Assembly: GCA_046731295.1 (NCBI GenBank)
Contig: JBKPKU010000051.1
Location: 13,902 to 77,901, forward strand
Source: Actinomycetota bacterium
GTDB taxonomy: Bacteria > Actinomycetota > UBA4738 > HRBIN12
Length of the DNA: 64,000 nt
Direction of reading: 5' to 3'
Positions within the stretch are counted from its first letter, which is position 1; every line of letters begins with the position of its first letter. Positions 3,327 to 26,451 of the stretch are shown piece after piece. Position numbers and translations under genes: made by a program. Under the pieces are notes generated by a model. The model was not told the origin of the DNA. It did no database searches and was given only the letters and a program-made list of their open reading frames with translations.

Positions 3327-4514
3327 CTACGGCCGCGGCTCCGCGCGGGCCTCCAGCACGGTCGCGAGCTCCGCGAACGCCACCTCGGGCACGTACCGGT
3401 CGCGGATCAGCGCCCGTCCCGCGTCCCGAAGGCTCGTCCACAACGCGTCGTCGGTCAGCACGCGAGCGGCCGGGCCGGCCATGGTCTCGGGACGATCCGC
3501 GACCAGCAGGTGCTCTCCGGCGACGACCTCGAGGCCCTCGGCCCCCTCGGCCGACGTGACGACCGGGAGCCCGCGCGCGAGCGCGTTCAGCACCTTGACC
3601 CGGCTGCCCGAACCCCCGACCGCCACGTCCACGAAGCAGCGCGACCGCCGGTACAGGCGCTCGTCGTCGTCGACCGGCCCGGCGTACTCGACGCCGCGCG
3701 CCCGATGGGCGAGCCGGATCAGCGACTCGGGCGCACCCGAGCCGCCGACGACGAGCCTGGCCTTCGGCACGCGTTCGAGCAGGGGAGGGAAGCCCTCGGC
3801 GATGAAGCGCGTCAGGCCCTCGGCGTTCGGCGGCCAGGACAGGGTGGCGAAGAACAGCAGGACGGGATCGGGGGCGGGGTCGAGCGGGGGGCGTTCGGCG
3901 AGCGCCGGGTCGGGGACGTTCGGCAGGATGCACACGTCCTCGGGCACCTGGCCGAGCTCCAGCAGCGCACGCCGGTCCGGTTCGGAGACGACGAACACGG
4001 TGTCGAAGCGCTCCAGGATCGACCGCTCGTAGCGGCGCACCCGGCCCGCCTCGAACCGCACCATCGCCCGGCGCGCGCGGCGACGCTCGAGGGCGGCGTG
4101 CCGCTGCCACATCACGTACTCGGCGTTGTGCTCGTGCAGCAGGCGCACGCCGGGGAAGCCCTCCGGGAGGTCCTGCGCCATGAGCCATCCGTCGACGAAC
4201 GCGAGGTCGTGGTGGCGGTCGGCGATCAGCTGCTCGATCCGTGCCCGCATCTCGCGGCTCCGGTTGCGTTGGACGCTGAGCGGGACGCCGGCCGCGTAGC
4301 TGCGCGCGAGGTTGAGGCCGGTGCGTCCGCGTTCGATCGGGACGGTGACGGTCTCGCCGTTCGCCCGCCGCCACGGGTCGGCGTCGGGGGTTCGGAACGC
4401 CGCGACGTCCACCGCGTGCTCGCGTTCGAGGAAGGAGAGCAGCGCCGCCGACTTGATCGTGCCGCCGCTGCGAGGGTCGTCGAGTCGGCGCGGCGTCAGG
4501 AACAGGATGCGCAT
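3327..4514 (-). CDS. GT4-family (GT-B fold) glycosyltransferase
   Basis: MRILFLTP start. The C-terminal half has a GT-B donor-binding pattern (GGSGSRVKVLNALARGLPVVTS). Its start lies 1 nt after the stop of the upstream tagA-like gene. Confidence 0.85.
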   Translation of the reverse strand: MRILFLTPRRLDDPRSGGTIKSAALLSFLEREHAVDVAAFRTPDADPWRRANGETVTVPIERGRTGLNLARSYAAGVPLSVQRNRSREMRARIEQLIADRHHDLAFVDGWLMAQDLPEGFPGVRLLHEHNAEYVMWQRHAALERRRARRAMVRFEAGRVRRYERSILERFDTVFVVSEPDRRALLELGQVPEDVCILPNVPDPALAERPPLDPAPDPVLLFFATLSWPPNAEGLTRFIAEGFPPLLERVPKARLVVGGSGAPESLIRLAHRARGVEYAGPVDDDERLYRRSRCFVDVAVGGSGSRVKVLNALARGLPVVTSAEGAEGLEVVAGEHLLVADRPETMAGPAARVLTDDALWTSLRDAGRALIRDRYVPEVAFAELATVLEARAEPRP

Positions 4515-4515
4515 C

Positions 4516-5265
4516 TCACGTCCGATCCACCAGCGCGAGGACCGGGAACACGAGGGTCGCGCGGGCGATGCGGGGCAGGCGCGCCGGCTCGAGCGCGAGT
4601 CGCCAGAGCCATTCCAGACCGGCCGCGTGGATCCATCCCGGCGCGCGCCGGAGCGTCCCGCCCCACATGTCGAACGCGCCCCCCACGCCCATCAGGACGC
4701 GCGCCGACGGCAGGAGCTCGGCGTGCTCGGCGATCCAGCGCTCCTGCTTCGGCGCGCCCAGTCCGACCAGCACGATCGCGGGCGACAGCGACCGGATGCG
4801 TTCCACGAGCTCGGCTCCGGCCAGTGGGTCGGCGCGGCCGTCGTCGCCGAAGGCCACGTCCGAGCCGGCGGCCTCCACGCGCAGGCCGGGGAGCGTCGAG
4901 CGCCACCGGTTCGCGGCGCGGTCGGCCGCGCCCTCCCGGCCGCCGAGCAACACCACGGACTCGCCCCTGGTGGCGGCCAGGCGCAGCAGGTCGGCGCCGA
5001 CCTCCACGCCCGGCCAGCGCCGCACGCGACGTCGGGAGCGGATCGACTCGACGAGCGCGACGCCCGTGCCGTCGGGGAGCGCGAGGTCGGCGGTGTTGAG
5101 CACCGACGCGTACCGGTGGTCGCGCCTGGCCAGCAGGAGGATCTCGGGGTTCGGGGTGAACACGCGATGCGGACGCTCGTCGTCCAGCATGCGCCCGAGC
5201 TCTCGGAGCAGCTGTCCCTCCGAGTCGAGCTCGTCCAGCTGCACGCCGAAGACGGATGGCGTCAC
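4516..5265 (-). CDS. WecB/TagA/CpsF (GT26) family glycosyltransferase
   Basis: VFTPNPEILLLARRD...LALPDGTGVAL...VVLLGGREG...IVLVGLGAPKQERWI...GVGGAFD. The ORF-track start at 5658 is an Arg-rich extension. GTG at 5265 overlaps the upstream stop (GTGA at 5262-5265). Confidence 0.8.
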   Translation of the reverse strand: MTPSVFGVQLDELDSEGQLLRELGRMLDDERPHRVFTPNPEILLLARRDHRYASVLNTADLALPDGTGVALVESIRSRRRVRRWPGVEVGADLLRLAATRGESVVLLGGREGAADRAANRWRSTLPGLRVEAAGSDVAFGDDGRADPLAGAELVERIRSLSPAIVLVGLGAPKQERWIAEHAELLPSARVLMGVGGAFDMWGGTLRRAPGWIHAAGLEWLWRLALEPARLPRIARATLVFPVLALVDRT

Positions 5266-5981
5266 GGGCGGTCGCCGGCGCCGGCGCGGGCGAAGGCCTC
5301 GTGCAGGCCCTCGGCGCGCTCGCGCAGCCGAGCCGGGACCTCGCGCCGATACCGCTCGCGGATCTCGCCCTTCATGCCGTCGCGCGTCTCGGAGGGCCTC
5401 GGCACGATGCGTTCGAGGTACTCGCCGCCGCCGCGCCGCGCGCGCCAGTCCTCTTCGATCTCGCGCAGGCACCTCGCGACGTTGTCCTGGGTCGGCTCGA
5501 ACTCGGCGAACGCGGTCCCGAACCGCGCGTTCACGCGCCGCGTGATGCGGCCGACCTCGCCGCCCACCACCTCCGCGAACGACCCGATCACGAGGTCCTT
5601 GCGGTAGGGGAGCAGCGGCTCGTGGAAGTCGACGTACCCGCGCAGCACGCCGGCGCACGTGCGCCCCGGGTGCCGGATCACGCTCGAGACCACCGCGCCC
5701 TCCGGGTCCCGGACGAGCACGAGGGCCGGCACGCCGAGTCGAATCGCCGCGATCACGTGGCCAGGCGCGTGGGTGTGGTGGGCCACCTTGAGCCGCGCCG
5801 GCTCCTGCGCGAGGTTGAACGCGGCCAGCGCGAACGACGACGCGGACCGCGGGAACGACTCGATCAGCAGATCGGTGTCCTCGGCGACGAGCTCGCCCTC
5901 GCCGCGCAGCCGCGCGAGCGGCTTGGCGAACGCCGGCCGCCGCGCGAGCCGCGTCATCACCCGATAGCGAACACGCTCCAC
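5262..5981 (-). CDS. Hypothetical protein, sulfotransferase-like (possible PAPS-binding motifs)
   Basis: IESFPRSASSFA resembles a 5'-PSB loop and LVLVRDPEGAVVSSVI resembles the RDPxxxxxS 3'-PB motif of bacterial sulfotransferases. Its stop overlaps the tagA-like start. The functional call is tentative. Confidence 0.55.
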   Translation of the reverse strand: MERVRYRVMTRLARRPAFAKPLARLRGEGELVAEDTDLLIESFPRSASSFALAAFNLAQEPARLKVAHHTHAPGHVIAAIRLGVPALVLVRDPEGAVVSSVIRHPGRTCAGVLRGYVDFHEPLLPYRKDLVIGSFAEVVGGEVGRITRRVNARFGTAFAEFEPTQDNVARCLREIEEDWRARRGGGEYLERIVPRPSETRDGMKGEIRERYRREVPARLRERAEGLHEAFARAGAGDRP

Positions 5982-6033
5982 CGGCGGATGCTACCGCTCG
6001 CCGCCGGACCGGCCGACGGCAACGAGGCCCCGG

Positions 6034-7032
6034 CTACGACGCTCCGGCGGGCACGGCGCGGGCGAAGAGCTCGGCCAACGCCTCCTCGGTCTCGAACACG
6101 ACGTCGTCCGGCCCGGCCTGCTCGGCCAGCCCGCCCGCGTTCGAGACGAGTGACGGCGTCCCCAGCCGCTGCGAGCGGGCGAGCGCCCCCGAGGACCAGG
6201 CCCCCCGGTACGGGAACACCATCCGGTCGGCGGCCTCCACCCACGCGTCGAAGTCCTCGTCGGACACGAACGCCTCGAGCAGCGTGACGCCGGGCGTGGA
6301 CGCCGCGAGCGCGCGCAGCTCCTCCACGTACCGGTCGGTGGCGTCGCTCGGGATGCGGACGGACCCGACCACGGAGAGCCGGCCCGGCGAGCCCGCGGCC
6401 CCGAACGCGCGGATCGCGCGATCGAACCCCTTGTCCGGCTGGAGGAAGCCGGCGCACACGAAGAGCGCTCCCTCCACGGCGTCGAGCCCCAGGCGTTCGC
6501 GCGCCTGCTCACGCGAGAGACGCGCATGCACCGCCACGCCCTCGGTGTGATCGATCAGCCGCCACCGTGTTCGGATCCGATACGCGTGCTCGAGCGCCAC
6601 CCGCTCGGCGTCGGTGTGGAACGCGAGTCGAGCCCGCGCGAACGCCAAGCCGAGCATCCGATAGTCGGGCCGCCAGCGGTTCGGCGGCACGTTGGCCTCG
6701 TGTAGGACGATCTCGACGTTCGAGCGGCGGAGCGTCAGGTACCACAGCGACGCAGCCGTGAGGACGTGCGCGGACGGTGAGCGGGGGCGGAAGTACAGGC
6801 CCGTCTCGTAGTGCACCACCACGCGGTCGAACCGGTCGCCGATCGCCGCCGCGTGCCGGAACGCCGCGCCGCCGATGAACGGCCTGCGAACGTCGCCGTC
6901 GCCGTCGGGCGGCGACAGCACGATTACGACGTGGCCCTCGCCCCTCAGCCGTTCGGCCTGCGCGCTCGCGTATGCCCCGATGCCGCAGTGACGAGGAGGG
7001 AAAGAGCTGACGATCAGGATCCGCTCAGGCAT
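6034..7032 (-). CDS. GT4-family glycosyltransferase
   Basis: The credible start MPERILIVSSFPPRHCGIGAYA at 7032 overlaps the upstream stop by 8 nt. The C-terminus has VFPYRGAWSSGALARSQRLGTPSLVS. The longer track ORF (to 7239) is an off-composition extension. Confidence 0.8.
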   Translation of the reverse strand: MPERILIVSSFPPRHCGIGAYASAQAERLRGEGHVVIVLSPPDGDGDVRRPFIGGAAFRHAAAIGDRFDRVVVHYETGLYFRPRSPSAHVLTAASLWYLTLRRSNVEIVLHEANVPPNRWRPDYRMLGLAFARARLAFHTDAERVALEHAYRIRTRWRLIDHTEGVAVHARLSREQARERLGLDAVEGALFVCAGFLQPDKGFDRAIRAFGAAGSPGRLSVVGSVRIPSDATDRYVEELRALAASTPGVTLLEAFVSDEDFDAWVEAADRMVFPYRGAWSSGALARSQRLGTPSLVSNAGGLAEQAGPDDVVFETEEALAELFARAVPAGAS

Positions 7033-18843: not shown

Positions 18844-20259
18844 ATGGCGGACACGGAGACGGGCAACGTGGTGCAGGTCGAATCGGCGCCGTCCGGCGGA
18901 CTCGACCGGTTCTTCAAGATCTCCGAACGCGGGTCGACCGTTCGGATCGAGATCATCGCCGGGATCACGACCTGGCTGACGATGGCGTACATCCTATTCG
19001 TCAACCCCACGATCCTCGGGTTCGTCGGCATCCCGGACCTGCGGCCACTGGGGCTGCCGTTCGCGCAGGTGCTGACGGTGACGGCGCTGACGGCCGGCGC
19101 CATGACGATCCTGATGGGCCTGGTGGCGAACTACCCGTTCGCGCTGGCGGCGGGGCTCGGGCTGAACGCGTTCGTCGCGTTCACGCTCGTCGCGGCCGAC
19201 GGGTTGTCGTTCCCACAGGCGATGGGCGTCATCGTGGTCGAGGGGTTGCTGATCACGGTGCTGGTGCTGACCGGCGTGCGCGAGGCGATCCTGCACGCGA
19301 TCCCGATGGATCTCAAGCGCGCGATCGGCATCGGCATCGGCGCTTTCATCGCGCTGATCGGCCTGGTGAACGCGGGCGTCGTGACGAACACGGGGCCCAC
19401 GCCGCTCTCCCTCGCCGGCGAGCTCACGACGTGGCCGATCGCCGTGTTCGTCGTTGGTCTCACGGTGAGCGCCGCCCTGGTCGCCCGGCGCGTCAAGGGC
19501 GCGTTGCTGATCGGGATCCTGGTCTCGACCGTGATGGCCACGATCGTCAACGAGGCCAACGACCTCGCGATCTGGCAGAACGGCATCGCGGCGTGGCCGA
19601 GCAGGATCGTGGACACGCCGGACTTCGGCCTGGTGGGGGCCTTCTCCTTCGACTTCTTCTCGGCGCTCGGAACCGCGACCGCGATCGCCGTCGTGATCTC
19701 GGTGATGCTGTCGGACTTCTTCGACACGATGGGGACGGTCATCGGGCTCGGCGGCGAGATGAAGGCGCTCGACGATAGGGGTCGGCTCCCCGGCATCAAG
19801 CGGGTGCTGCTCATCGACTCGTTGGCGGCGGCCGCGGGCGGCGCCGCGTCGGCGTCGTCGAACACCACCTACATCGAGAGCGCGTCGGGGATCTCCGAGG
19901 GCGGACGCACCGGCCTGGTCTCGTTGGTGGTCGGCGTCCTGTTCCTGCTGGCGATGTTCTTCTCGCCGATCGCCGGCGTGATCCCGCCGCAGGCCACGGC
20001 GCCGGCGCTGGTGCTCGTCGGCTACTTCATGATGGTGCTGGTCAAGGACATCCAGTGGGCCGACCCGGGCATCGGGGTGCCCGCCCTGCTCACGATCGTG
20101 ATGATGCCGTTCACGTACAGCATCACCAACGGCGTGGGGGCCGGGTTCCTGTCCTACGTCGTGATCGCGGTGCTGCGTGGCAAGTGGCGGGACGTCCATC
20201 CTCTGCTGTACGGGGTCGCGGCGATCTTCGCCTGGTACTTCGTCCACGGGGTGGTGTAG
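18844..20259 (+). CDS. NCS2/AzgA-family purine (adenine/guanine/hypoxanthine) permease
   Basis: LDRFFKISERGSTVRIEIIAGITTWLTMAYILFVNP... plus multiple TM segments. ATG at 18844 is preceded by GGAAAAGAGGTGG. Confidence 0.9.
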   Translation: MADTETGNVVQVESAPSGGLDRFFKISERGSTVRIEIIAGITTWLTMAYILFVNPTILGFVGIPDLRPLGLPFAQVLTVTALTAGAMTILMGLVANYPFALAAGLGLNAFVAFTLVAADGLSFPQAMGVIVVEGLLITVLVLTGVREAILHAIPMDLKRAIGIGIGAFIALIGLVNAGVVTNTGPTPLSLAGELTTWPIAVFVVGLTVSAALVARRVKGALLIGILVSTVMATIVNEANDLAIWQNGIAAWPSRIVDTPDFGLVGAFSFDFFSALGTATAIAVVISVMLSDFFDTMGTVIGLGGEMKALDDRGRLPGIKRVLLIDSLAAAAGGAASASSNTTYIESASGISEGGRTGLVSLVVGVLFLLAMFFSPIAGVIPPQATAPALVLVGYFMMVLVKDIQWADPGIGVPALLTIVMMPFTYSITNGVGAGFLSYVVIAVLRGKWRDVHPLLYGVAAIFAWYFVHGVV

Positions 20260-20273
20260 CGAGGAAGGGCCGC

Positions 20274-21563
20274 TCACTCGGTCCGCAGGAACGCGGAGAG
20301 GTCGAGCGAGGGCCGCGGAGGCGCGGTCCCCGACGGCATCGGGCCGGCCGCGACGGTGCCCAGCGCGAACCACTGGTCGTCCATGCCGAGCGCCACGCGG
20401 CTCTCCTGTTGACAGAAGAGCGTCGAGGAGATCCAGCACGACGCGTAGCCCTGGGCGTGGAGCGCGAGCAGGAGGTTCTGGATCGCGGCCCCGCCCGACA
20501 GCAGGAACATCTCTTGCTCCGCGTGCGCCCGTTCGGCGTCCGGGTACGGGTGCGCCCGCTCGAACCGCACCCACGGGACGATCAGCACGGGCGCGGCCCC
20601 CAACACGGCGTCGCTGCGAGCGATCCGACGCGCGATCGTGTCCTCGGGCGTCCCGTCGCCGCGCAGGTCGGCACGCCAGGCCTCGGCGATCGCGCCCAGC
20701 AGGCGCCGCTTGGCGGCCGGCGACCACAGCGCGGTGAACGACCAGGGGCGCGTGTGATGGGGCGCCGGGGCGGTGCACGCCGCGCGAACCGCCTCCTCGA
20801 CGACCCCGCGCGGCACCTGGCCTTCGCCGAACGCCCGGATCGTGCGCCGCTCCGAGATCGACAACAGCGGCGACGCGCGGAACAGGTCCTCGTCGGGGGG
20901 GCGCACGAGCTCGGCCACCGGCACGGACGTCCCGTCATGGCGCACCCCACGCACCAGAGCAGCCGGCACGCGCTCGGCCTTGCCCATCGCGAGTCCGCTG
21001 GCCGCGGCCACCTCGTCCGCGAGCGCCACCACGGTCGCCTCGAGCTCGCGGCCGAGGTGGTCGGCCGTGCCGCGCAGGTCGACCAGCGAGGCGATCCCCG
21101 CGCATCCGATCGCGACGTTCACCACGCCGCGACGCCACGGCCGCCCGAACGTGTCGGTGATCACGACGGCGACGTCGGCGCCGAGTCGTTCGGACAGCGC
21201 GGTGCGCAGCCGCTCGGCCGAGCCGTCCGGGTCCTCGGGCAGCAGGGTCAGGAACCCGGCCTCGACGTTCGAGGCGTCGACGCCCGCGTTCGCGCACACG
21301 AAGCCGTGTCGCGTCTCGGCGACCACGAGGTCGCCGCGCCGCGCGACGACCCGTCGGGCCTCGCGATCGACCCAGCCCTCGCGGCCGCCGTCGCCCTCGG
21401 CCACGACGCGCCCCTCGGCCTTCGACACGACCTTCTGCGTGACCGCGACCACGTCGCCGTCGCGAACGCCCACGGGCCCCAACGCGGCCGATAGGACCTC
21501 GCCCAGGTCGTCTCCGGGCCGAACCTCCTTGACGCCCTCGACCGGCAGGATCTCGATCTTCAC
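20274..21563 (-). CDS. fbiB: Bifunctional F420 gamma-glutamyl ligase (CofE domain) / C-terminal nitroreductase-like domain, FbiB type
   Basis: VAVTQKVVSKAEGR...CANAGVDASN...VITDTFGRPWRRG in the N-terminal half. The C-terminal half is nitroreductase-like (RRTIRAFG...APAPHHTRPW). Confidence 0.9.
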   Translation of the reverse strand: MKIEILPVEGVKEVRPGDDLGEVLSAALGPVGVRDGDVVAVTQKVVSKAEGRVVAEGDGGREGWVDREARRVVARRGDLVVAETRHGFVCANAGVDASNVEAGFLTLLPEDPDGSAERLRTALSERLGADVAVVITDTFGRPWRRGVVNVAIGCAGIASLVDLRGTADHLGRELEATVVALADEVAAASGLAMGKAERVPAALVRGVRHDGTSVPVAELVRPPDEDLFRASPLLSISERRTIRAFGEGQVPRGVVEEAVRAACTAPAPHHTRPWSFTALWSPAAKRRLLGAIAEAWRADLRGDGTPEDTIARRIARSDAVLGAAPVLIVPWVRFERAHPYPDAERAHAEQEMFLLSGGAAIQNLLLALHAQGYASCWISSTLFCQQESRVALGMDDQWFALGTVAAGPMPSGTAPPRPSLDLSAFLRTE

Positions 21564-21567
21564 GGGC

Positions 21568-22509
21568 TCACGCGAGCATGTCGAGCGCGAAACGGGCGAG
21601 TGCCTCGGCCTTCGCGTCGTCGGTCATGATCGAGTCGGTCGCGCCGGCCCGAACGCCGGTTGCCTCGATGCGCGGGATCAGCGCTCGATCGGCCGCGTCG
21701 ACGACCCAGGCCGCGAGCAACCCGTCGTAGCAGGCGGCGGCCCCGGCGGCCGAGACCTCGGCGCCGGCGGCGGGCATCAGCCGATCCGCCATCCCCGCGA
21801 GCGGCGCGCCGGCGACGATCCCACTCACGCCGACCACGTCCGAGCGCCGTGCCGCCAACGCGTCGCGGATCCCGGGGACGGCGAGGATCGGGCCGATCGA
21901 GGCGACCGGGTTCGACGGGCACAGCACGACCGTGTCCGCATCGGCGATCGCCAGGAGCACGCCGGGGGCCGGGCGTGCGTGGTCGGCACCCTCATAGCGG
22001 ATCCTCTTGACCTCGTCGCGTCCCCCGCGCCGAACCCAGTATTCCTGGAAGTGCAGGTCGAGCTCGGCGCCGTCGGAGACGATCGTGATCCGCGTGGCGA
22101 TGGGATCGTCGCTCATCGGCAGGAGCGTGGCCCCGATCCCGAACCGCGCGGCGACCGCCGCGGTCGCCTCGCTCAGCGTCTTGCCCGCGGCGAGCAGGTT
22201 CGTCCGGAACAGATGCGTCGCCAGATCGAGGTCGCCCAGGTTGAACCACGCCTGGTCGGGGTCGAACGATCGGAGCTCCTCGGTCGCCCGGAACGTCTCG
22301 CCGCGCCGCCCCCACCCGCGCTCGCGGTCGAACACGTCGCCCAGCCAGTACGTCACCGAGTCGAGATCCGGTGAGACGTGAAGGCCATGCATCGTGATGT
22401 CGTCGCCGGTGTTCACGAGCACGGTGACGTCCCCGGGGGCAACCACACGGACGAGTCCGCGCAGGAACTTCCCGGCGCCGATCCCGCCGGCCAGCGCCGT
22501 GACCCTCAC
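21568..22509 (-). CDS. fbiA: 2-phospho-L-lactate transferase (CofD/FbiA)
   Basis: VRVTALAGGIGAGKFLRGL...VLVNTGDDITMHGLHVSPDLDSVTY...LCPSNPVASIGPIL. The GTG start overlaps the upstream stop (GTGA at 22506-22509). Confidence 0.9.
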   Translation of the reverse strand: MRVTALAGGIGAGKFLRGLVRVVAPGDVTVLVNTGDDITMHGLHVSPDLDSVTYWLGDVFDRERGWGRRGETFRATEELRSFDPDQAWFNLGDLDLATHLFRTNLLAAGKTLSEATAAVAARFGIGATLLPMSDDPIATRITIVSDGAELDLHFQEYWVRRGGRDEVKRIRYEGADHARPAPGVLLAIADADTVVLCPSNPVASIGPILAVPGIRDALAARRSDVVGVSGIVAGAPLAGMADRLMPAAGAEVSAAGAAACYDGLLAAWVVDAADRALIPRIEATGVRAGATDSIMTDDAKAEALARFALDMLA

Positions 22510-23843
22510 GCGTCCACCACCGTGAACAGCCGCCACGGCTCGGGGACGCCCTTGAGCGTGTGCATGCCTCGGTCCGCGAACGCGATGCCGGACCCGGCGA
22601 CCAGGTCCCGCACCGTGCTGGAGACCAGGACCTCGCCCGGCGAGGCCTCGGCGGCCACGCGGGCACCCGTGTGCACGGCGATACCTCGGATTCCACCGTC
22701 GGCGAGCTCGACCTCGCCGGTGTGCAGGCCGGCGCGGATCTCCAGACCCAGCGACCGAACCCCGTCGCGGACGGCGCACGCGCACCGGATCGCGCGGGCC
22801 GGCCCGTCGAACGTCGCCAGGAAACCGTCGCCCGCCGTGTCGACCTCGTGGCCGCGGTGGCGTTCGAGCTCCTCGCGCACGAGCGCGTGGTGACGACCGA
22901 TCACGTCGCGCCACGCCACGTCACCGAGCGCGGACGCGCGGGCCGTCGAGTCGACGATGTCGGTCATCAAGATCGTGGCCAGCACCCGGTCGCGCCCGGA
23001 CGCGGGCCGCGAGCCCGTCAGGAACTCCTGGACCTCGTCGAGGATGAGGTCGGCATTTCCGATGAACGGGAAGTAGTCGTCCCCCTCGACCTCGACGTAG
23101 CGGGCCCCGGGGATGTGCTCGCCGAGGTAACGGCCGTGCACGGCCTCCACCAGACGGTTGTCCCGCCGCGAGATGACCAGCGTCGGCACGCGGATCGAGG
23201 GAAGCACGTCGCGCACGTCGAGCTGCTGGAGCATGTGGCGCATCGCGAGCACCGTGCCCGGGCTCGACCCGAGGCGCTGGTACCGCGCCCACCAGCTGCG
23301 GAACGCGGGGTCGCCGGCCACGGTGGGCCCGACGGTCTCGAGCAGCACGCCGCGGCCCCACCCGAACTCCAGCTCCTGCTCGATCCGCGCCTCGAACTCG
23401 GGCGAGGTGCCCCATGGGTAGTCGGGCGCCCGCGTGTACCGGGCCGTGGTGTTCATGAGCACGAGAGCGCGTACGCGTTCGGGCGCGGTGGCGGCCAACA
23501 GCATCCCGACGCCGCCGCCTCCTCCGACCCCGAGCACGGAGGCCTTGGCCGACCCCGCGGCCTCCATCGTGGTGATCACGTCGTCGGTCCACACCTCCAG
23601 TGTCGGCATGTCGGACAGCGAGACCGGGTCGGACGAGCCCGTGCCACGCTGGTCGATGCAGATCACGCGGGCGAACGACCCGAGCCGCTCGAGGAAGTGC
23701 TGGTAGTCCGGCTGCTCCCACATCGCCTCGATCGAGTTCCAGAACTCCGCCAGGAACACGACATCGAGGCCGCCGCTCCCGAACACCTGATAGGCGACGT
23801 GCACGTCGCCGCTCCTCGTGTACCGCGTCTCGGGGGCGTCCAT
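22506..23843 (-). CDS. Alpha/beta-hydrolase-fold domain fused to class III adenylate/guanylate cyclase domain
   Basis: Start MDAPETRYTRSGDVHVAYQVFG at 23843. The hydrolase-fold half has GVGGGGG where the GxSxG nucleophile elbow is expected. The C-terminal half reads ATILMTDIVDST...VDTAGDGFLATF...IRAGLHTGEVE...GIAVHTGARV. Confidence 0.85.
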   Translation of the reverse strand: MDAPETRYTRSGDVHVAYQVFGSGGLDVVFLAEFWNSIEAMWEQPDYQHFLERLGSFARVICIDQRGTGSSDPVSLSDMPTLEVWTDDVITTMEAAGSAKASVLGVGGGGGVGMLLAATAPERVRALVLMNTTARYTRAPDYPWGTSPEFEARIEQELEFGWGRGVLLETVGPTVAGDPAFRSWWARYQRLGSSPGTVLAMRHMLQQLDVRDVLPSIRVPTLVISRRDNRLVEAVHGRYLGEHIPGARYVEVEGDDYFPFIGNADLILDEVQEFLTGSRPASGRDRVLATILMTDIVDSTARASALGDVAWRDVIGRHHALVREELERHRGHEVDTAGDGFLATFDGPARAIRCACAVRDGVRSLGLEIRAGLHTGEVELADGGIRGIAVHTGARVAAEASPGEVLVSSTVRDLVAGSGIAFADRGMHTLKGVPEPWRLFTVVDA

Positions 23844-23888
23844 CCGAGGCAGTCTGCGGCGACGGACCGACGGGCTGCAACCGGCCGG

Positions 23889-23901
23889 TGATACGCTCGC
23901 C
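23889..23901 (+). promoter_or_regulatory. Putative extended -10 promoter (TGA-TACGCT) for fbiC, near-leaderless
   Basis: TGATACGCTCGCC is identical to 8296-8308. The hexamer at 23892-23897 ends 10 nt before ATG 23908, with no SD sequence. Confidence 0.4.
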
Positions 23902-23907
23902 GAGCCC

Positions 23908-26451
23908 ATGCGTGCAGCACCCGAGCGCCTGCTGTCACGCTCGCTCGCGCGGGCGACCTCGGGCAAGTCCCTGTCCGTCGACGAGGTCGAGGCGTTGCTG
24001 TCTGCGCGAGGGCCCGCGCTCGCCGACCTCACGTCGCTGGCGTCGAACCTGCGAGAGCTCGGTCACGGCCGCACCGTCACGTACTCGCGCAAGGTGTTCG
24101 TCCCGCTCACGATGCTGTGCCGTGACCACTGTCATTACTGCACGTTCGCCAAGCCGCCGGCCAAGCTGGACCACCCGTTTCTGTCGCCCGATGAGGTCGT
24201 GGCGATCGCCGAGGCGGGGCGGCGCATGGGGTGCAAGGAAGCGTTGTTCACGCTCGGCGACCGGCCCGAGGAGCGGTACGACGTCGCGCGCGCCTGGCTT
24301 GCTCAGCGGGGATTCGGATCGACGCTCGAGTACGTGCGCGCCTCCGCGATCCGCGTGATCGAGGAGACCGGGTTGCTCCCGCATCTCAACCCCGGCGTCA
24401 TGTCCTACGAGGAGATGGCCCGCCTCAAGCAGGTGGCGCCCTCGATGGGGTTGATGCTCGAGACCTCCTCTCCCCGGCTGTCCGAGCGCGGGGGTCCGCA
24501 CTTCGGGTCGCCGGACAAGGTCCCCGCCGTGCGCGTGCGCACCATCGAGGACGCCGGTCGGCTGGCGATCCCGTTCACCACGGGGATCCTGGTGGGGATC
24601 GGAGAGACGCTCGCCGAACGAGCGGCGTCGCTGCTCTCGATCCGCGAGATCCACCGCCGGTACCGGCACGTCCAGGAGGTGATCGTCCAGAACTTCCGGG
24701 CCAAGCCCGGCACGGCGATGCACGACGCGCCCGAACCCGGAGACGAGGAGTTCCTGGCCACCGTTGCGACCGCCAGGGTCGTCTTCGGCCCGCGGATGCA
24801 TGTGCAGGCGCCGCCCAACCTGTCGGATCCAGAACAGCAGCTCCGGCTGCTCGACGCCGGGATCGATGATTGGGGCGGCGTCTCGCCGCTCACGCCCGAC
24901 CACGTGAACCCCGAGCGCCCGTGGCCGGCGATCGAGCGCCTAACCGCCCGGACCGCCGAGCGCGGGCTCGAGCTGCGCGAGCGCCTGACGATCTACCCCG
25001 AGTTCGCGCTGCGGCCCTCGTCGTTTCTGGCCGGCAGGATGCGGGCCCCGGTCGAGGCGCTCATGGCCCCGGATGGCTTGGCCGTGCCCGGCGCGATCGC
25101 CCGGCCGATCCCCTGGCAGGACCCGGATATCTCCTGGAAGCCGCGCACGACCGAGCTGACGTTCGCCAAGGGCCGCGGCTCGGGGCTCCGATCGGACGCC
25201 GACGTCGTCTACGGCACGGCCGACCTCCCCGAGCGCACCCTGGCGTGGCGTTCGGAGCGGGTGTCGCCCCGGCGGCTCGAGGGGCAGATCCGCTCGGCCC
25301 TGTCGAAGGCCGAGGCGCACCGCCCGATCACGGACGAGGAGGCGATGGCGCTGTTCCGAGCGGACGGCGATGCACTCGAGGCCCTGTGCGGGGTCGCCGA
25401 CGGACTACGCGAGGAGGCCGTCGGCGATGCGGTCACGTACGTCGTGAACCGCAACATCAACTTCACCAACGTGTGCTACGTGGGGTGCCGCTTCTGTGCG
25501 TTCGCCCAGCGCGAGGTCGACCCCGAGTCGTACACGCTGACGCTGGCAGAGGTGGCCGACCGCGCTCGCGAGGCCGCCGCGTGGGGATGCACCGAGGTGT
25601 GCATGCAGGGCGGGATCCATCCCGACCTCCCCGGATCCTTCTACTTCGATCTGCTCGACGCCGTGCGCGAAGCGGCGCCGGATATCCACATCCACGCGTT
25701 CAGCCCCATGGAGGTGATGAACGGCTCGACCAAGCTCGGCATCTCGTTCCGCGAGTTCCTGCAGGAATGCCGGGCGCACGGGCTGGGCACGATCCCGGGC
25801 ACCGCGGCCGAGATCCTGGACGACGACGTGCGCTGGGTGCTGACCAGGGGAAAACTGCCGGCCGACGCGTGGGAGCGGATCGTTCGAACCGCGCACGACC
25901 TCGGGATCCGCAGCTCGTCCACGATCATGTTCGGGCACGTCGACGCGCCCCCGCATTGGATTTTCCACATCCGGCGCATCGCGAACATCCAGCGTGACAC
26001 CGGCGGATTCACCGAGTTCGTTCCCCTGCCGTTCGTGCACCAGAACGCCCCGATCTACCTCGCCGGGAAGGCGCGCCCCGGTCCCTCATTCGAGGACGAC
26101 CGGCGCATGCACGCGGTTGCGCGCATCCTGCTCGACCGAGTTATCCACAACGTTCAGGTGTCGTGGGTGAAGATGGGCGTGCGGGCCTGTCAGACGATCC
26201 TGAACGGCGGCGCGAACGATTTCGGCGGTACGTTGATGGAGGAAACGATCAGTCGCATGGCCGGCGCCGAATGGGGGATCCGCATGGAACCGTCGCAGAT
26301 CCGCGATGCGATCACGGCGATCGGCCGCATCCCCGTCGAACGCAGCACCACGTACGAACCGTTGCAGCGCAATGAGTTCAGCCATGTATCTGACGGTGCA
26401 CACGGCGACCACGAGGCCTCGAGACGCGAGGGGCCCGGCTCGAACGCCTGA
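23908..26451 (+). CDS. fbiC: FO (7,8-didemethyl-8-hydroxy-5-deazariboflavin) synthase, fused CofG/CofH radical-SAM domains
   Basis: Two radical-SAM cysteine motifs (CRDHCHYCTF and CYVGCRFCAF) in one roughly 850-aa protein. Start chosen at ATG 23908 (MRAAPERLL). Confidence 0.9.
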   Translation: MRAAPERLLSRSLARATSGKSLSVDEVEALLSARGPALADLTSLASNLRELGHGRTVTYSRKVFVPLTMLCRDHCHYCTFAKPPAKLDHPFLSPDEVVAIAEAGRRMGCKEALFTLGDRPEERYDVARAWLAQRGFGSTLEYVRASAIRVIEETGLLPHLNPGVMSYEEMARLKQVAPSMGLMLETSSPRLSERGGPHFGSPDKVPAVRVRTIEDAGRLAIPFTTGILVGIGETLAERAASLLSIREIHRRYRHVQEVIVQNFRAKPGTAMHDAPEPGDEEFLATVATARVVFGPRMHVQAPPNLSDPEQQLRLLDAGIDDWGGVSPLTPDHVNPERPWPAIERLTARTAERGLELRERLTIYPEFALRPSSFLAGRMRAPVEALMAPDGLAVPGAIARPIPWQDPDISWKPRTTELTFAKGRGSGLRSDADVVYGTADLPERTLAWRSERVSPRRLEGQIRSALSKAEAHRPITDEEAMALFRADGDALEALCGVADGLREEAVGDAVTYVVNRNINFTNVCYVGCRFCAFAQREVDPESYTLTLAEVADRAREAAAWGCTEVCMQGGIHPDLPGSFYFDLLDAVREAAPDIHIHAFSPMEVMNGSTKLGISFREFLQECRAHGLGTIPGTAAEILDDDVRWVLTRGKLPADAWERIVRTAHDLGIRSSSTIMFGHVDAPPHWIFHIRRIANIQRDTGGFTEFVPLPFVHQNAPIYLAGKARPGPSFEDDRRMHAVARILLDRVIHNVQVSWVKMGVRACQTILNGGANDFGGTLMEETISRMAGAEWGIRMEPSQIRDAITAIGRIPVERSTTYEPLQRNEFSHVSDGAHGDHEASRREGPGSNA

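What the first reader, a model, noticed from the sequence alone, without database searches (positions are those of the whole stretch)
22506..23843. Nucleophile-less alpha/beta-hydrolase domain fused to a class III cyclase, translationally coupled to the F420 gene fbiA
The gene sits between divergent fbiC and the fbiA-fbiB pair. Its stop overlaps the fbiA GTG (GTGA at 22506-22509), so it heads the fbiA/fbiB operon. The C-terminal cyclase domain keeps its metal-binding and GDG-type motifs (MTDIVDST, DTAGDGFLATF). The hydrolase-fold half reads VLGVGGGGGVG where the GxSxG nucleophile elbow should be, so no Ser, Cys or Asp nucleophile is present. That suggests a ligand-sensing pseudo-enzyme domain rather than a lipase. 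Hydrolase-cyclase fusions exist in mycobacteria (LipJ type, from memory). I am not aware of cAMP signalling being wired into deazaflavin cofactor biosynthesis, so a cyclase co-translated with F420 enzymes is unexpected.
Basis: partly seen in the sequence, partly recalled or inferred. Interest (0 to 1): 0.6.

Follow-up and report, generated by a model that had tools for sequence, protein, structure and literature searches.

The report
Dead-hydrolase adenylyl cyclase heading F420 operon
This gene encodes a LipJ-type signalling enzyme (a cAMP-making cyclase fused to a catalytically dead hydrolase-fold domain) that sits as the first gene of the F420-cofactor operon in a few uncultured soil actinobacteria, but it looks like an optional add-on to that operon rather than a proven part of cofactor synthesis.

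Summary
Window 22506-23843 (-) encodes a 445-aa alpha/beta-hydrolase plus class III cyclase fusion. Its TGA stop overlaps the fbiA GTG (GTGA), and it lies between divergent fbiC and fbiA-fbiB.

All three hydrolase triad positions are replaced: Ser to Gly107, Asp to Asn229, His to Tyr257. These replacements are conserved in its orthologues. The cyclase core (D295, D339, R395, plus His391 as in Rv1900c) is intact.

This is a member of the very large LipJ (Rv1900c)-like family. 106 of 150 representative clusters also lack the triad, so a nucleophile-less form is common.

The F420 linkage is real but narrow. Of 57 genomes of the same order, 48 have fbiC and fbiA directly back to back; most of the spacers printed are about 25-35 bp. 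Only 3 same-genus genomes, plus four further fbi-linked orthologous loci at 71-76% identity, carry this gene there. Two or three other lineages carry other LipJ-like paralogues at the same site.

Homologues at 66-72% identity sit in unrelated contexts. Deletion scars show repeated loss.

The gene is under purifying selection (dN/dS 0.15) and was co-inherited with fbiA (equal dS).

Best reading: a regulated adenylyl cyclase riding on the fbiAB operon. A true F420-cAMP link is unproven.

The parts
22506..23843 (-). lipJ-like gene, 445 codons plus TGA; ATG start at 23843
   Evidence: Translation. Full-length match to NCBIfam LipJ model NF058673: 478.8 bits, model positions 6-448 of 449, below the 800-bit cut-off. 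120 homologues of about 445 aa align from residue 1.
23004..23843 (-). N-terminal alpha/beta-hydrolase-fold domain (res 1-280), catalytically dead
   Evidence: Pfam Abhydrolase_1, Abhydrolase_6 and Hydrolase_4. Foldseek TMt 0.82-0.86 to enol-lactonase 2xua, aryl esterase and KAI2/D14. dN/dS 0.12 against the G009 orthologue.
23514..23531 (-). Nucleophile elbow G105-V-G107-G-G-G110; the Ser position is Gly107 (codon 23523-23525)
   Evidence: Aligned to GLSMG, GVSMG and GHSVS of solved hydrolases. In 120 orthologues G107 is 113 Gly and 7 Ala, and G108 and G109 are invariant.
23157..23159 (-). Asn229 at the triad Asp position
   Evidence: Family members with Ser have Asp here in 40 of 52. Orthologues have Asn in 116 of 120.
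23073..23075 (-). Tyr257 at the triad His position
   Evidence: Family members with Ser have His here in 47 of 52. Orthologues have Tyr in 106 of 120. The 2xua and D14L alignments put His on Y257.
22509..22994 (-). C-terminal class III cyclase homology domain (res 284-445)
   Evidence: phmmer to the Rv1900c CHD (1ybt), E 4e-49. Foldseek to 1ybu_B: TMt 0.95, rmsd 1.1 A, 56% identity. Pfam Guanylate_cyc.
22659..22961 (-). Cyclase catalytic residues. Metal-binding D295 (22959-61) and D339 (22827-29). D335 (22839-41) at the substrate-Lys position. H391 (22671-73) at the catalytic Asn position. R395 (22659-61).
   Evidence: D295 is present in 119 of 120 orthologues (one gap), and D339 and R395 in 120 of 120. 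H391 is present in 118 of 120 and D335 in 110 of 120. The alignment to Rv1900c puts D335 on N342 and H391 on H402.
22506..22509 (-). GTGA: fbiA GTG start overlapping the lipJ-like TGA stop
   Evidence: The same 4-nt overlap is seen in orthologous loci L123, L128 and L129 and in L135 and L137. An ATGA/GTGA overlap is also present in G047 and G041.
23844..23907 (.). 64-bp divergent promoter spacer. Read by eye: TTGCAG (23875-23880, -) then N18, CAGACT (23851-23856, -), N7 and the ATG of lipJ, which would make the transcript leaderless. TACGCT (23892-23897, +) lies 10 nt before the fbiC ATG.
   Evidence: Coordinates. The motifs are conserved across LipJ+ loci and in some LipJ- loci. The consensus promoter scan found nothing at its thresholds, so this part is an inference.
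21568..22509 (-). fbiA (CofD, 2-phospho-L-lactate transferase), 313 aa
   Evidence: TIGR01819, 342.8 bits against a cut-off of 257.
20274..21563 (-). fbiB (F420 gamma-glutamyl ligase plus nitroreductase-like domain), 429 aa, starting 4 nt after fbiA
   Evidence: PRK13294, 480.6 bits; junction.
23908..26451 (+). fbiC (CofG/CofH fusion, FO synthase), divergent
   Evidence: NF006687, 1240.8 bits against a cut-off of 1018.

Best explanation
The gene encodes a LipJ (Rv1900c)-like two-domain signalling enzyme. The C-terminal class III cyclase domain is most likely an active, homodimeric adenylyl cyclase. That is inferred from 56% identity (Foldseek) to the Rv1900c CHD and from the conserved metal Asp pair, Arg395 and the Rv1900c-type His391. 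The N-terminal alpha/beta-hydrolase-fold domain has lost Ser, Asp and His (now Gly107, Asn229, Tyr257) and cannot hydrolyse esters by the classical mechanism. Because it is under strong purifying selection, it most likely serves as a regulatory or ligand-binding module that gates the cyclase (inferred). The gene appears to be transcribed from its own promoter as a leaderless first cistron of a lipJ-fbiA-fbiB operon, and its stop overlaps the fbiA start. The promoter and leaderless start are read by eye, and coupling is inferred from the overlap. Evolutionarily it is an accessory cassette of promoter plus gene, inserted into the otherwise very short fbiC/fbiA divergent promoter region of a small clade of uncultured soil actinobacteria (Gaiellales-like). 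It was co-inherited with fbiA there and lost repeatedly. Its placement most likely gives it expression by riding on the F420 operon, rather than making it a component of F420 biosynthesis.
For: Architecture and residues.
Purifying selection: dN/dS is 0.15 overall (hydrolase-fold domain 0.12, cyclase 0.21) against 0.21 for fbiA. dS is identical (0.606) for lipJ and fbiA between G000 and G009.
Family pattern: triad-less members keep the cyclase core in 105 of 106 clusters, while triad-intact ones keep it in only 32 of 44 (Fisher p 1e-6). This argues that the cyclase is the output in triad-less forms.
Accessory status:
- 48 of 57 genomes of the order have fbiC and fbiA back to back.
- Only G000, G009 and G015 of about 23 congeneric species carry the gene. 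L137 (71% identity) and the loci of P0019, P0017 and P0027 (74-76%) also carry it.
- P0029 (72%), P0038 (70%), P0052 (67%) and P0060 (66%) lie in unrelated contexts.
- Only 3 of 80 LipJ-like loci from many phyla are fbi-linked.
Loss scars: the long-spacer promoter is fused directly to fbiA in G014, G002, G004 and G016. G013 keeps a 13-codon mini-ORF that ends in GTGA.
Other genes inserted at the same site: FHA-LuxR plus a beta-propeller protein in G051, and an AAA+ ATPase plus a methyltransferase in G058.
Signalling background: the MAG has at least 25 cyclase domains and 16 cNMP-binding domains, so this is one of many cAMP-signalling genes.
Against: LipJ-like genes, and not random genes, account for 6 of the 8 genomes with an insert between fbiC and fbiA, although the family is well under 1% of genes.
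They come from at least three separate branches of the LipJ tree: the window clade with G041, then G047, then G040.
A 4-nt start/stop overlap with fbiA is kept in the window clade, in G041 and in G047.
Between G000 and G009 the protein is more conserved (86% identity) than fbiA (80%).
These points fit selection for co-expression with fbiAB.
No biochemical data exist for this protein. Cyclase activity and substrate are inferred by homology, and positions 335 (Asp) and 384 (Gly) are non-canonical.
Confidence: 0.62

Rival explanations
1. Dedicated F420-pathway sensor or regulator. The dead hydrolase domain binds a deazaflavin-pathway metabolite (FO, F420-n, PEP/2-PL or EPPG-type intermediates) or senses redox state. 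It tunes cAMP output so that cofactor synthesis and cAMP-dependent regulation are coordinated. The operon position and translational coupling are selected features.
For: A 4-nt overlap with fbiA is conserved in every LipJ+ locus, including the divergent paralogues of G041 and G047. LipJ-like genes recur at this one site in several lineages. The pseudo-hydrolase domain is under strong constraint, with dN/dS 0.12. The nearest structural neighbours include hydrolase-fold receptors (KAI2/D14, RsbQ).
Against: The gene is absent from about 85% of related genomes, which all keep fbiC, fbiA and fbiB, and it has been lost repeatedly. fbi-linked LipJ-likes are heterogeneous: those of G047 and G040 keep an intact Ser-Asp-His triad, while the window clade and G041 do not. 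So no common sensor pocket is implied. The closest non-linked homologues show no pathway theme. The full-text searches found no paper linking cAMP with F420 synthesis.
Confidence: 0.2
2. The cyclase domain is not an adenylyl cyclase. With Asp335 and Gly384 at the purine-specifying positions, reminiscent of the Glu/Gly pair of guanylyl cyclases and of the K-to-E, D-to-G changes that convert Ma1120, it may prefer GTP or another NTP. That could tie it to the GTP-consuming steps FbiD and FbiB and the GMP-releasing FbiA step.
For: D335 is conserved in 110 of 120 orthologues instead of Lys, and position 384 is Gly here. The Ma1120 KDA-to-EGY mutant structures are among the fold neighbours, and the paper on that enzyme is PMC4215837. 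Rv1900c itself has a guanylyl cyclase side activity (abstract of Sinha et al. 2005, from memory; PMC4886424 says it is purported to show both activities).
Against: Position 384 is not conserved among orthologues (G 33, D 20, A 20, R 13, K 9 and others), and the alignment there has a 4-residue gap relative to Rv1900c. In Rv1900c the equivalent residues do not contact the substrate and are dispensable (from memory of Sinha et al. 2005; the paper was not held).
Confidence: 0.1
3. The gene is a decaying or non-functional remnant of a LipJ paralogue that happens to be read through on the way to fbiA.
For: The hydrolase triad is completely lost. Relatives show remnants and frameshifted copies at the same site: the G013 mini-ORF, the G047 remnant and the frameshift in the G040 cyclase.
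Against: The ORF is intact at 445 aa. dN/dS is 0.15. The replacement residues and the cyclase core are conserved across 120 orthologues down to 60% identity. The AlphaFold2 model is confident, with pLDDT 92.
Confidence: 0.03

Closest known systems
Mycobacterium tuberculosis LipJ / Rv1900c (NCBIfam NF058673; CHD structures 1YBT and 1YBU)
   Same: It has the same two-domain order, an N-terminal alpha/beta-hydrolase followed by a C-terminal class III CHD, and matches the model over its full length. The CHD is 56% identical by Foldseek, with TMt 0.95. It has His at the catalytic Asn position and a non-Lys residue at the substrate-Lys position, as in Rv1900c (PMC4886424).
   Different: It scores 479 bits against the 800-bit equivalog cut-off, so it is not an orthologue. 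The hydrolase triad is fully replaced, whereas Rv1900c is listed as a characterised esterase (PMC10865251, citing Kumari and Kaur 2021). It has Asp335 where Rv1900c has Asn342, and a 4-residue deletion before the His391 strand. The genomic context differs: it heads the fbiAB operon.
Triad-intact LipJ-like paralogue found through much of the same genus (for example G000 contig C156, L002; GHSEGG / DD / DH motifs)
   Same: It has the same architecture and 55% identity. The cyclase core is identical.
   Different: The paralogue keeps Ser-Asp-His, is found in at least 11 of the congeneric genomes and is not next to the fbi genes. The window gene is triad-less, patchy in distribution and fbi-linked.
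Signalling alpha/beta-hydrolases (RsbQ of Bacillus subtilis; plant KAI2/D14 receptors)
   Same: The N-domain matches them by sequence (E about 1e-10 to 1e-13) and by fold (TMt 0.8-0.85). They are a precedent for a hydrolase fold used as a small-molecule sensor.
   Different: Those receptors keep the catalytic triad and hydrolyse their ligand, and this domain cannot. They are not fused to a cyclase.
Canonical actinobacterial F420 locus (fbiC, fbiA-fbiB; mycobacterial Rv1173 and Rv3261-Rv3262)
   Same: The fbiA-fbiB pair and fbiC are ordinary orthologues. The whiB and glycosyltransferase neighbourhood is as in related genomes.
   Different: An extra first cistron and a replacement promoter lie between fbiC and fbiA. 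In 48 of 57 relatives the two genes start back to back; most printed spacers are about 25-35 bp, a few up to about 185 bp.

Membership tests
Class III nucleotidyl cyclase (Pfam PF00211) | Sequence or profile match and CHD fold | tested here: met
   PF00211 scores 34 bits against a gathering score of 21.9. 1ybt gives E 4e-49. Foldseek TMt is 0.95.
Class III nucleotidyl cyclase (Pfam PF00211) | Two metal-binding Asp residues | tested here: met
   D295 (MTDIVDST) and D339 (AGDGF). D339 is present in all 120 orthologues and D295 in 119 of 120, with one gap.
Class III nucleotidyl cyclase (Pfam PF00211) | Transition-state Asn and Arg | tested here: inconclusive
   The Arg (R395) is present. The Asn position holds His391, as in the active enzyme Rv1900c (PMC4886424).
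Class III nucleotidyl cyclase (Pfam PF00211) | Canonical ATP-specifying Lys/Asp pair | tested here: not met
   Asp335 and Gly384 are found instead. The pair is reported as dispensable in Rv1900c (from memory of Sinha et al. 2005).
Class III nucleotidyl cyclase (Pfam PF00211) | Cyclase activity | not testable with these tools
   This needs an enzyme assay.
LipJ equivalog (NCBIfam NF058673, bifunctional lipase/adenylate cyclase) | Full-length two-domain match | tested here: met
   Residues 2-441 match model positions 6-448 of 449.
LipJ equivalog (NCBIfam NF058673, bifunctional lipase/adenylate cyclase) | Score above the curated cut-off (800 bits) | tested here: not met
   The score is 478.8 bits.
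LipJ equivalog (NCBIfam NF058673, bifunctional lipase/adenylate cyclase) | Functional lipase/esterase half (Ser-Asp-His) | tested here: not met
   The three positions hold G107, N229 and Y257.
Alpha/beta-hydrolase fold (Pfam PF00561 / PF12697) | Profile match and fold | tested here: met
   PF00561 scores 55 bits against 25.8. Foldseek TMt is about 0.85 to 2xua, 1va4 and KAI2.
Alpha/beta-hydrolase fold (Pfam PF00561 / PF12697) | Nucleophile-acid-His catalytic triad | tested here: not met
   All three positions are substituted, and the substitutions are conserved in orthologues.
F420 biosynthesis operon component | Same strand and overlapping or adjacent to fbiA-fbiB | tested here: met
   GTGA overlap.
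F420 biosynthesis operon component | Linkage conserved across genomes that make F420 | tested here: not met
   Only 6 of 57 genomes of the order have any LipJ-like gene at the site. Only 3 of 80 LipJ-like loci elsewhere are fbi-linked.
F420 biosynthesis operon component | Co-transcription or a functional requirement | not testable with these tools
There is no culture.

The most novel reading that the evidence does not exclude
The conserved, triad-less hydrolase-fold domain is a receptor for a deazaflavin-pathway or redox metabolite. The protein would then couple F420 cofactor synthesis to cAMP signalling, making it a first dedicated regulator of F420 biosynthesis in Actinobacteria. Selection for co-translation with FbiA would explain why LipJ-like genes have repeatedly settled at exactly this position with a 4-nt overlap.
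Probability: 0.13. Interest if true: 0.7.

Novelty: new member of a known kind. Interest (0 to 1): 0.3.

Why it matters
Nothing in the papers I searched describes how actinobacteria regulate F420 synthesis, and no cAMP link turned up. If the cyclase really sensed pathway state, that would be a new regulatory connection for a cofactor relevant to antibiotic activation and soil redox chemistry.

As it stands, the value is more modest:
- It is a clean example of a conserved pseudo-hydrolase used as a presumptive regulatory domain of an adenylyl cyclase.
- It documents that most of the LipJ-like family has lost the hydrolase triad while keeping the cyclase.
- It shows a compact divergent promoter region acting as a landing site where an accessory signalling gene gains operon expression and is repeatedly lost.

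Tried and rejected
- The consensus promoter/terminator scan of 20000-24200 found nothing. The promoter hexamers are therefore read by eye from a comparison of loci.
- Sinha et al. 2005 (PMC549627) is not held, and only the abstract and references of Shenoy et al. 2004 are held. What I say about the Rv1900c holoenzyme rests on memory and on PMC4886424.
- I could not retrieve the full-length M. tuberculosis LipJ sequence. The control genomes of the genome search do not include it, so I did not verify its nucleophile residue.
- I rejected the longer ORF start (GTG 24032, 508 aa). It would overlap fbiC by 125 nt, and all homologues start at the ATG at 23843.
- I rejected recent horizontal transfer into G000, because dS of lipJ equals dS of fbiA against G009.
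- I rejected a pseudogene reading, because dN/dS is 0.15.
- I did not run an AU test of monophyly of the fbi-linked copies. Relocation of copies would make either outcome uninformative about history.
Full report
**Observation.** Pfam finds Abhydrolase_1 at residues 58-257 (E 1e-14, 55 bits against a cut-off of 25.8). It finds Guanylate_cyc at residues 290-432 (E 3e-8, 34 bits against 21.9). Downstream on the same strand lie fbiA (CofD, TIGR01819, 343 bits) and fbiB (PRK13294, 481 bits). Upstream and divergent lies fbiC (CofGH, 1241 bits). The last base of Ala445 plus the TGA stop spell GTGA at 22509-22506. The GTG opens fbiA, whose product begins MRVTALAGGIGAGKF. fbiB starts 4 nt after the fbiA stop.

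**Hydrolase half.**
- HMMER alignments to solved hydrolases place G105-V-G107-G-G on G-L-S-M-G of enol-lactonase 2xua. They also place it on G-V-S-M-G of esterase Est1 and on G-H-S-V-S of D14L. The nucleophile is therefore Gly107.
- I aligned 150 representatives of 50%-identity clusters (41-60% identical to the query), the 120 closest homologues and paralogues from relatives.
- In the 52 representatives that keep Ser at this column, column 229 is Asp in 40 and column 257 is His in 47. This fixes the triad columns.
- The window protein has Asn229 and Tyr257, so all three catalytic residues are gone.
- In the 120 closest homologues (60-92% identity) the replacements are themselves conserved: G107 113/120 (Ala in the rest), G108 and G109 120/120, N229 116/120, Y257 106/120.
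- The AlphaFold2 model built on that alignment is confident (mean pLDDT 92.3). It places G107 at the turn between strand 101-106 and helix 108-119.
- By Foldseek the N-domain resembles enol-lactonase, aryl esterases and the KAI2/D14 receptor hydrolases (TMt about 0.85).

**Cyclase half.**
- Residues 284-441 match the cyclase homology domain of M. tuberculosis Rv1900c/LipJ (1ybt, E 4e-49).
- By Foldseek the match to 1ybu_B has TMt 0.95, rmsd 1.1 A and 56% identity.
- The metal-binding Asp295 and Asp339 and the transition-state Arg395 are kept: D339 and R395 in 120/120 orthologues, D295 in 119/120 with one gap.
- His391 occupies the catalytic Asn position exactly as His402 does in Rv1900c (PMC4886424).
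- Asp335 replaces the substrate Lys, where Rv1900c has Asn342.
- Position 384, the canonical substrate Asp, is Gly here. It is variable among orthologues and lies next to a 4-residue gap relative to Rv1900c.
- By homology the domain should be an active cyclase, probably making cAMP. Activity and substrate are inferred, not shown.

**Family.**
- The whole protein matches the NCBIfam LipJ model end to end, but at 479 bits against an 800-bit equivalog cut-off. It is a LipJ-like homologue, not an orthologue.
- The family is very large, with 5,699 50%-identity clusters at E <= 1e-30. It occurs in Actinomycetota, Chloroflexota, Proteobacteria and others.
- It is expanded in this lineage. The 2.65-Mb MAG has four or more full-length copies and at least 25 cyclase domains, and 16 cNMP-binding domains. 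Relatives have up to 14 copies.
- Loss of the triad is common. Only 44 of 150 representative clusters keep Ser, Asp/Glu and His together.
- Triad-less clusters keep the cyclase core in 105 of 106 cases. Triad-intact ones keep it in only 32 of 44 (Fisher p 1.2e-6, not corrected for phylogeny). In triad-less forms the cyclase is evidently the working output.
- At least 11 of the congeneric genomes carry a different, triad-intact paralogue (GHSEGG, 55% identical) that is not near the fbi genes.

**Context and history.**
- I took the fbiA neighbourhood from 57 genomes of the same order.
- In 48 of them fbiC and fbiA start back to back. In most, the spacer is about 25-35 bp and holds the palindrome AGCGTAcTACGCT, which is two back-to-back -10-like hexamers, each a few nucleotides from an ATG. 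A few are longer, up to about 185 bp.
- A LipJ-like gene lies between fbiC and fbiA in these genomes:
  - G000, G009 and G015 of the same genus (86% identical);
  - G041 and G047 of another family (52-54% identical);
  - G040, where a GH31 gene intervenes and the cyclase is frameshifted.
- Further fbi-linked orthologous loci at 71-76% identity have the same fbiC, lipJ-fbiA-fbiB order and the same 4-nt overlap. These are P0019, P0017 and P0027 from metagenome assemblies and L137 from a soil MAG.
- Homologues at 72, 70, 67 and 66% identity (P0029, P0038, P0052, P0060) lie in unrelated neighbourhoods.
- Only 3 of 80 LipJ-like loci from species representatives are fbi-linked.
- LipJ+ loci have a longer spacer with TTGCAc-N18-CAGACT-N7-ATG. 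This suggests a dedicated promoter and a leaderless lipJ. It was read by eye; the scan tool found nothing at its thresholds.
- The same long spacer is fused directly to the fbiA ATG in G014, G002, G004 and G016. G013 keeps the promoter, an ATG, 12 codons and a GTGA overlap with fbiA. G047 has a remnant that joins LipJ residues about 1-17 to about 402-422, in front of its present copy. These look like deletion scars.
- On a concatenated FbiC-FbiA-FbiB tree the LipJ+ genomes are scattered among LipJ- ones. At least 5 changes are forced by well-supported branches.
- Between G000 and G009, dS is 0.606 for both lipJ and fbiA. dN/dS is 0.15 for lipJ (0.12 for the hydrolase-fold domain, 0.21 for the cyclase) and 0.21 for fbiA.
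- So the cassette was already present in the common ancestor of G000 and G009, has been maintained by selection where it was kept, and has been lost several times.
- Other genes have also landed at this site: an FHA-LuxR protein plus a beta-propeller protein in G051, and an AAA+ ATPase plus a methyltransferase in G058.

**Mechanism.**
- Shown: the architecture, the dead triad, the intact cyclase core, the operon geometry, and the patchy but inherited distribution.
- Inferred: the protein is a homodimeric adenylyl cyclase whose pseudo-hydrolase domain regulates it, perhaps by binding a small hydrophobic ligand. It is expressed as the leaderless first cistron and is translationally coupled to fbiA.
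- The simplest reading of the distribution is that an accessory signalling gene gained expression by sitting behind a promoter in front of fbiAB.
- Against pure chance, 6 of the 8 genomes with an insert at the site carry a LipJ-like gene there. These genes sit on at least three different branches of the LipJ tree. The 4-nt overlap with fbiA recurs in G041 and G047.
- I therefore leave about 20% for a real functional link with F420 synthesis. The linked copies differ in whether they keep the triad, which argues against a common sensor function.

**Comparison and novelty.**
- The closest known protein is Rv1900c/LipJ. It has the same domain order and the same non-canonical cyclase residues, but it is listed as a characterised esterase (PMC10865251). 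It is not linked to the fbi genes.
- Hydrolase-fold signalling proteins (RsbQ, KAI2/D14) are a functional analogy only.
- The full-text searches found no paper connecting cAMP and F420 synthesis.
Another describes a PAS-GGDEF gene at the same site. I treat both as leads, not evidence.

**Verdict.** This is a new member of a known kind, in a locally conserved but dispensable operon context. It is of modest interest.

**Limits.** There is no expression or biochemical evidence. The key Rv1900c paper was not held. The organism is an 87%-complete soil MAG.

Noticed in passing
relatives' fbiC/fbiA spacers, e.g. L069, L073, L085, L098; window equivalent 23844-23907: In most genomes of the order, fbiC and fbiA start only about 25-35 bp apart, around a palindrome AGCGTAcTACGCT (or AGCCTAcTACGCT). 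This looks like two back-to-back -10 boxes driving two leaderless divergent transcripts. It would be an unusually compact bidirectional promoter.
   Followed up: partly
L079 (G013), upstream of fbiA: The long-spacer promoter is followed by ATG, 12 codons and a TGA that overlaps the fbiA GTG. This 13-codon leaderless mini-ORF is probably what remains after deletion of the lipJ-like gene.
   Followed up: partly
L109 (G047), about 5530-5680: A remnant ORF reads VDIPETQYAKSDGVEIA fused to GSGEVLVSGTVRDLVAGSGIEF, that is LipJ residues about 1-17 joined to about 402-422. It lies directly in front of the present, triad-intact LipJ-like gene. An older copy was largely deleted at the same site.
   Followed up: partly
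L094 (G051) 4820-6891; L107 (G058) 3963-6300; L120 (G040) 3930-6560: Other genes have been inserted between fbiC and fbiA: an FHA plus LuxR-HTH protein with a secreted beta-propeller-like protein; an AAA+ ATPase with a methyltransferase; and a GH31 glycosidase. The G040 LipJ-like cyclase domain appears frameshifted.
   Followed up: partly
whole MAG G000: The cyclic-nucleotide signalling repertoire is very dense for a 2.65-Mb genome. There are at least 25 class III cyclase domains, several in proteins longer than 1000 aa, and 16 cNMP-binding domains.
   Followed up: no
LipJ-like family, 150 cluster representatives: There is an either/or pattern. Clusters with a dead hydrolase triad almost always keep the cyclase core (105/106). 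Clusters with an intact triad have lost cyclase core residues in 12/44. This suggests the fusion has repeatedly specialised into a regulated cyclase or into a hydrolase with a pseudo-cyclase.
   Followed up: partly
relatives: G007:C8 193972-196649, G008:C4 23713-26390, G025:C57 24774-27574, G003:C4 12636-15307: Tandem pairs of LipJ-like genes are common in this order. This fits local duplication and recombination between paralogues.
   Followed up: no
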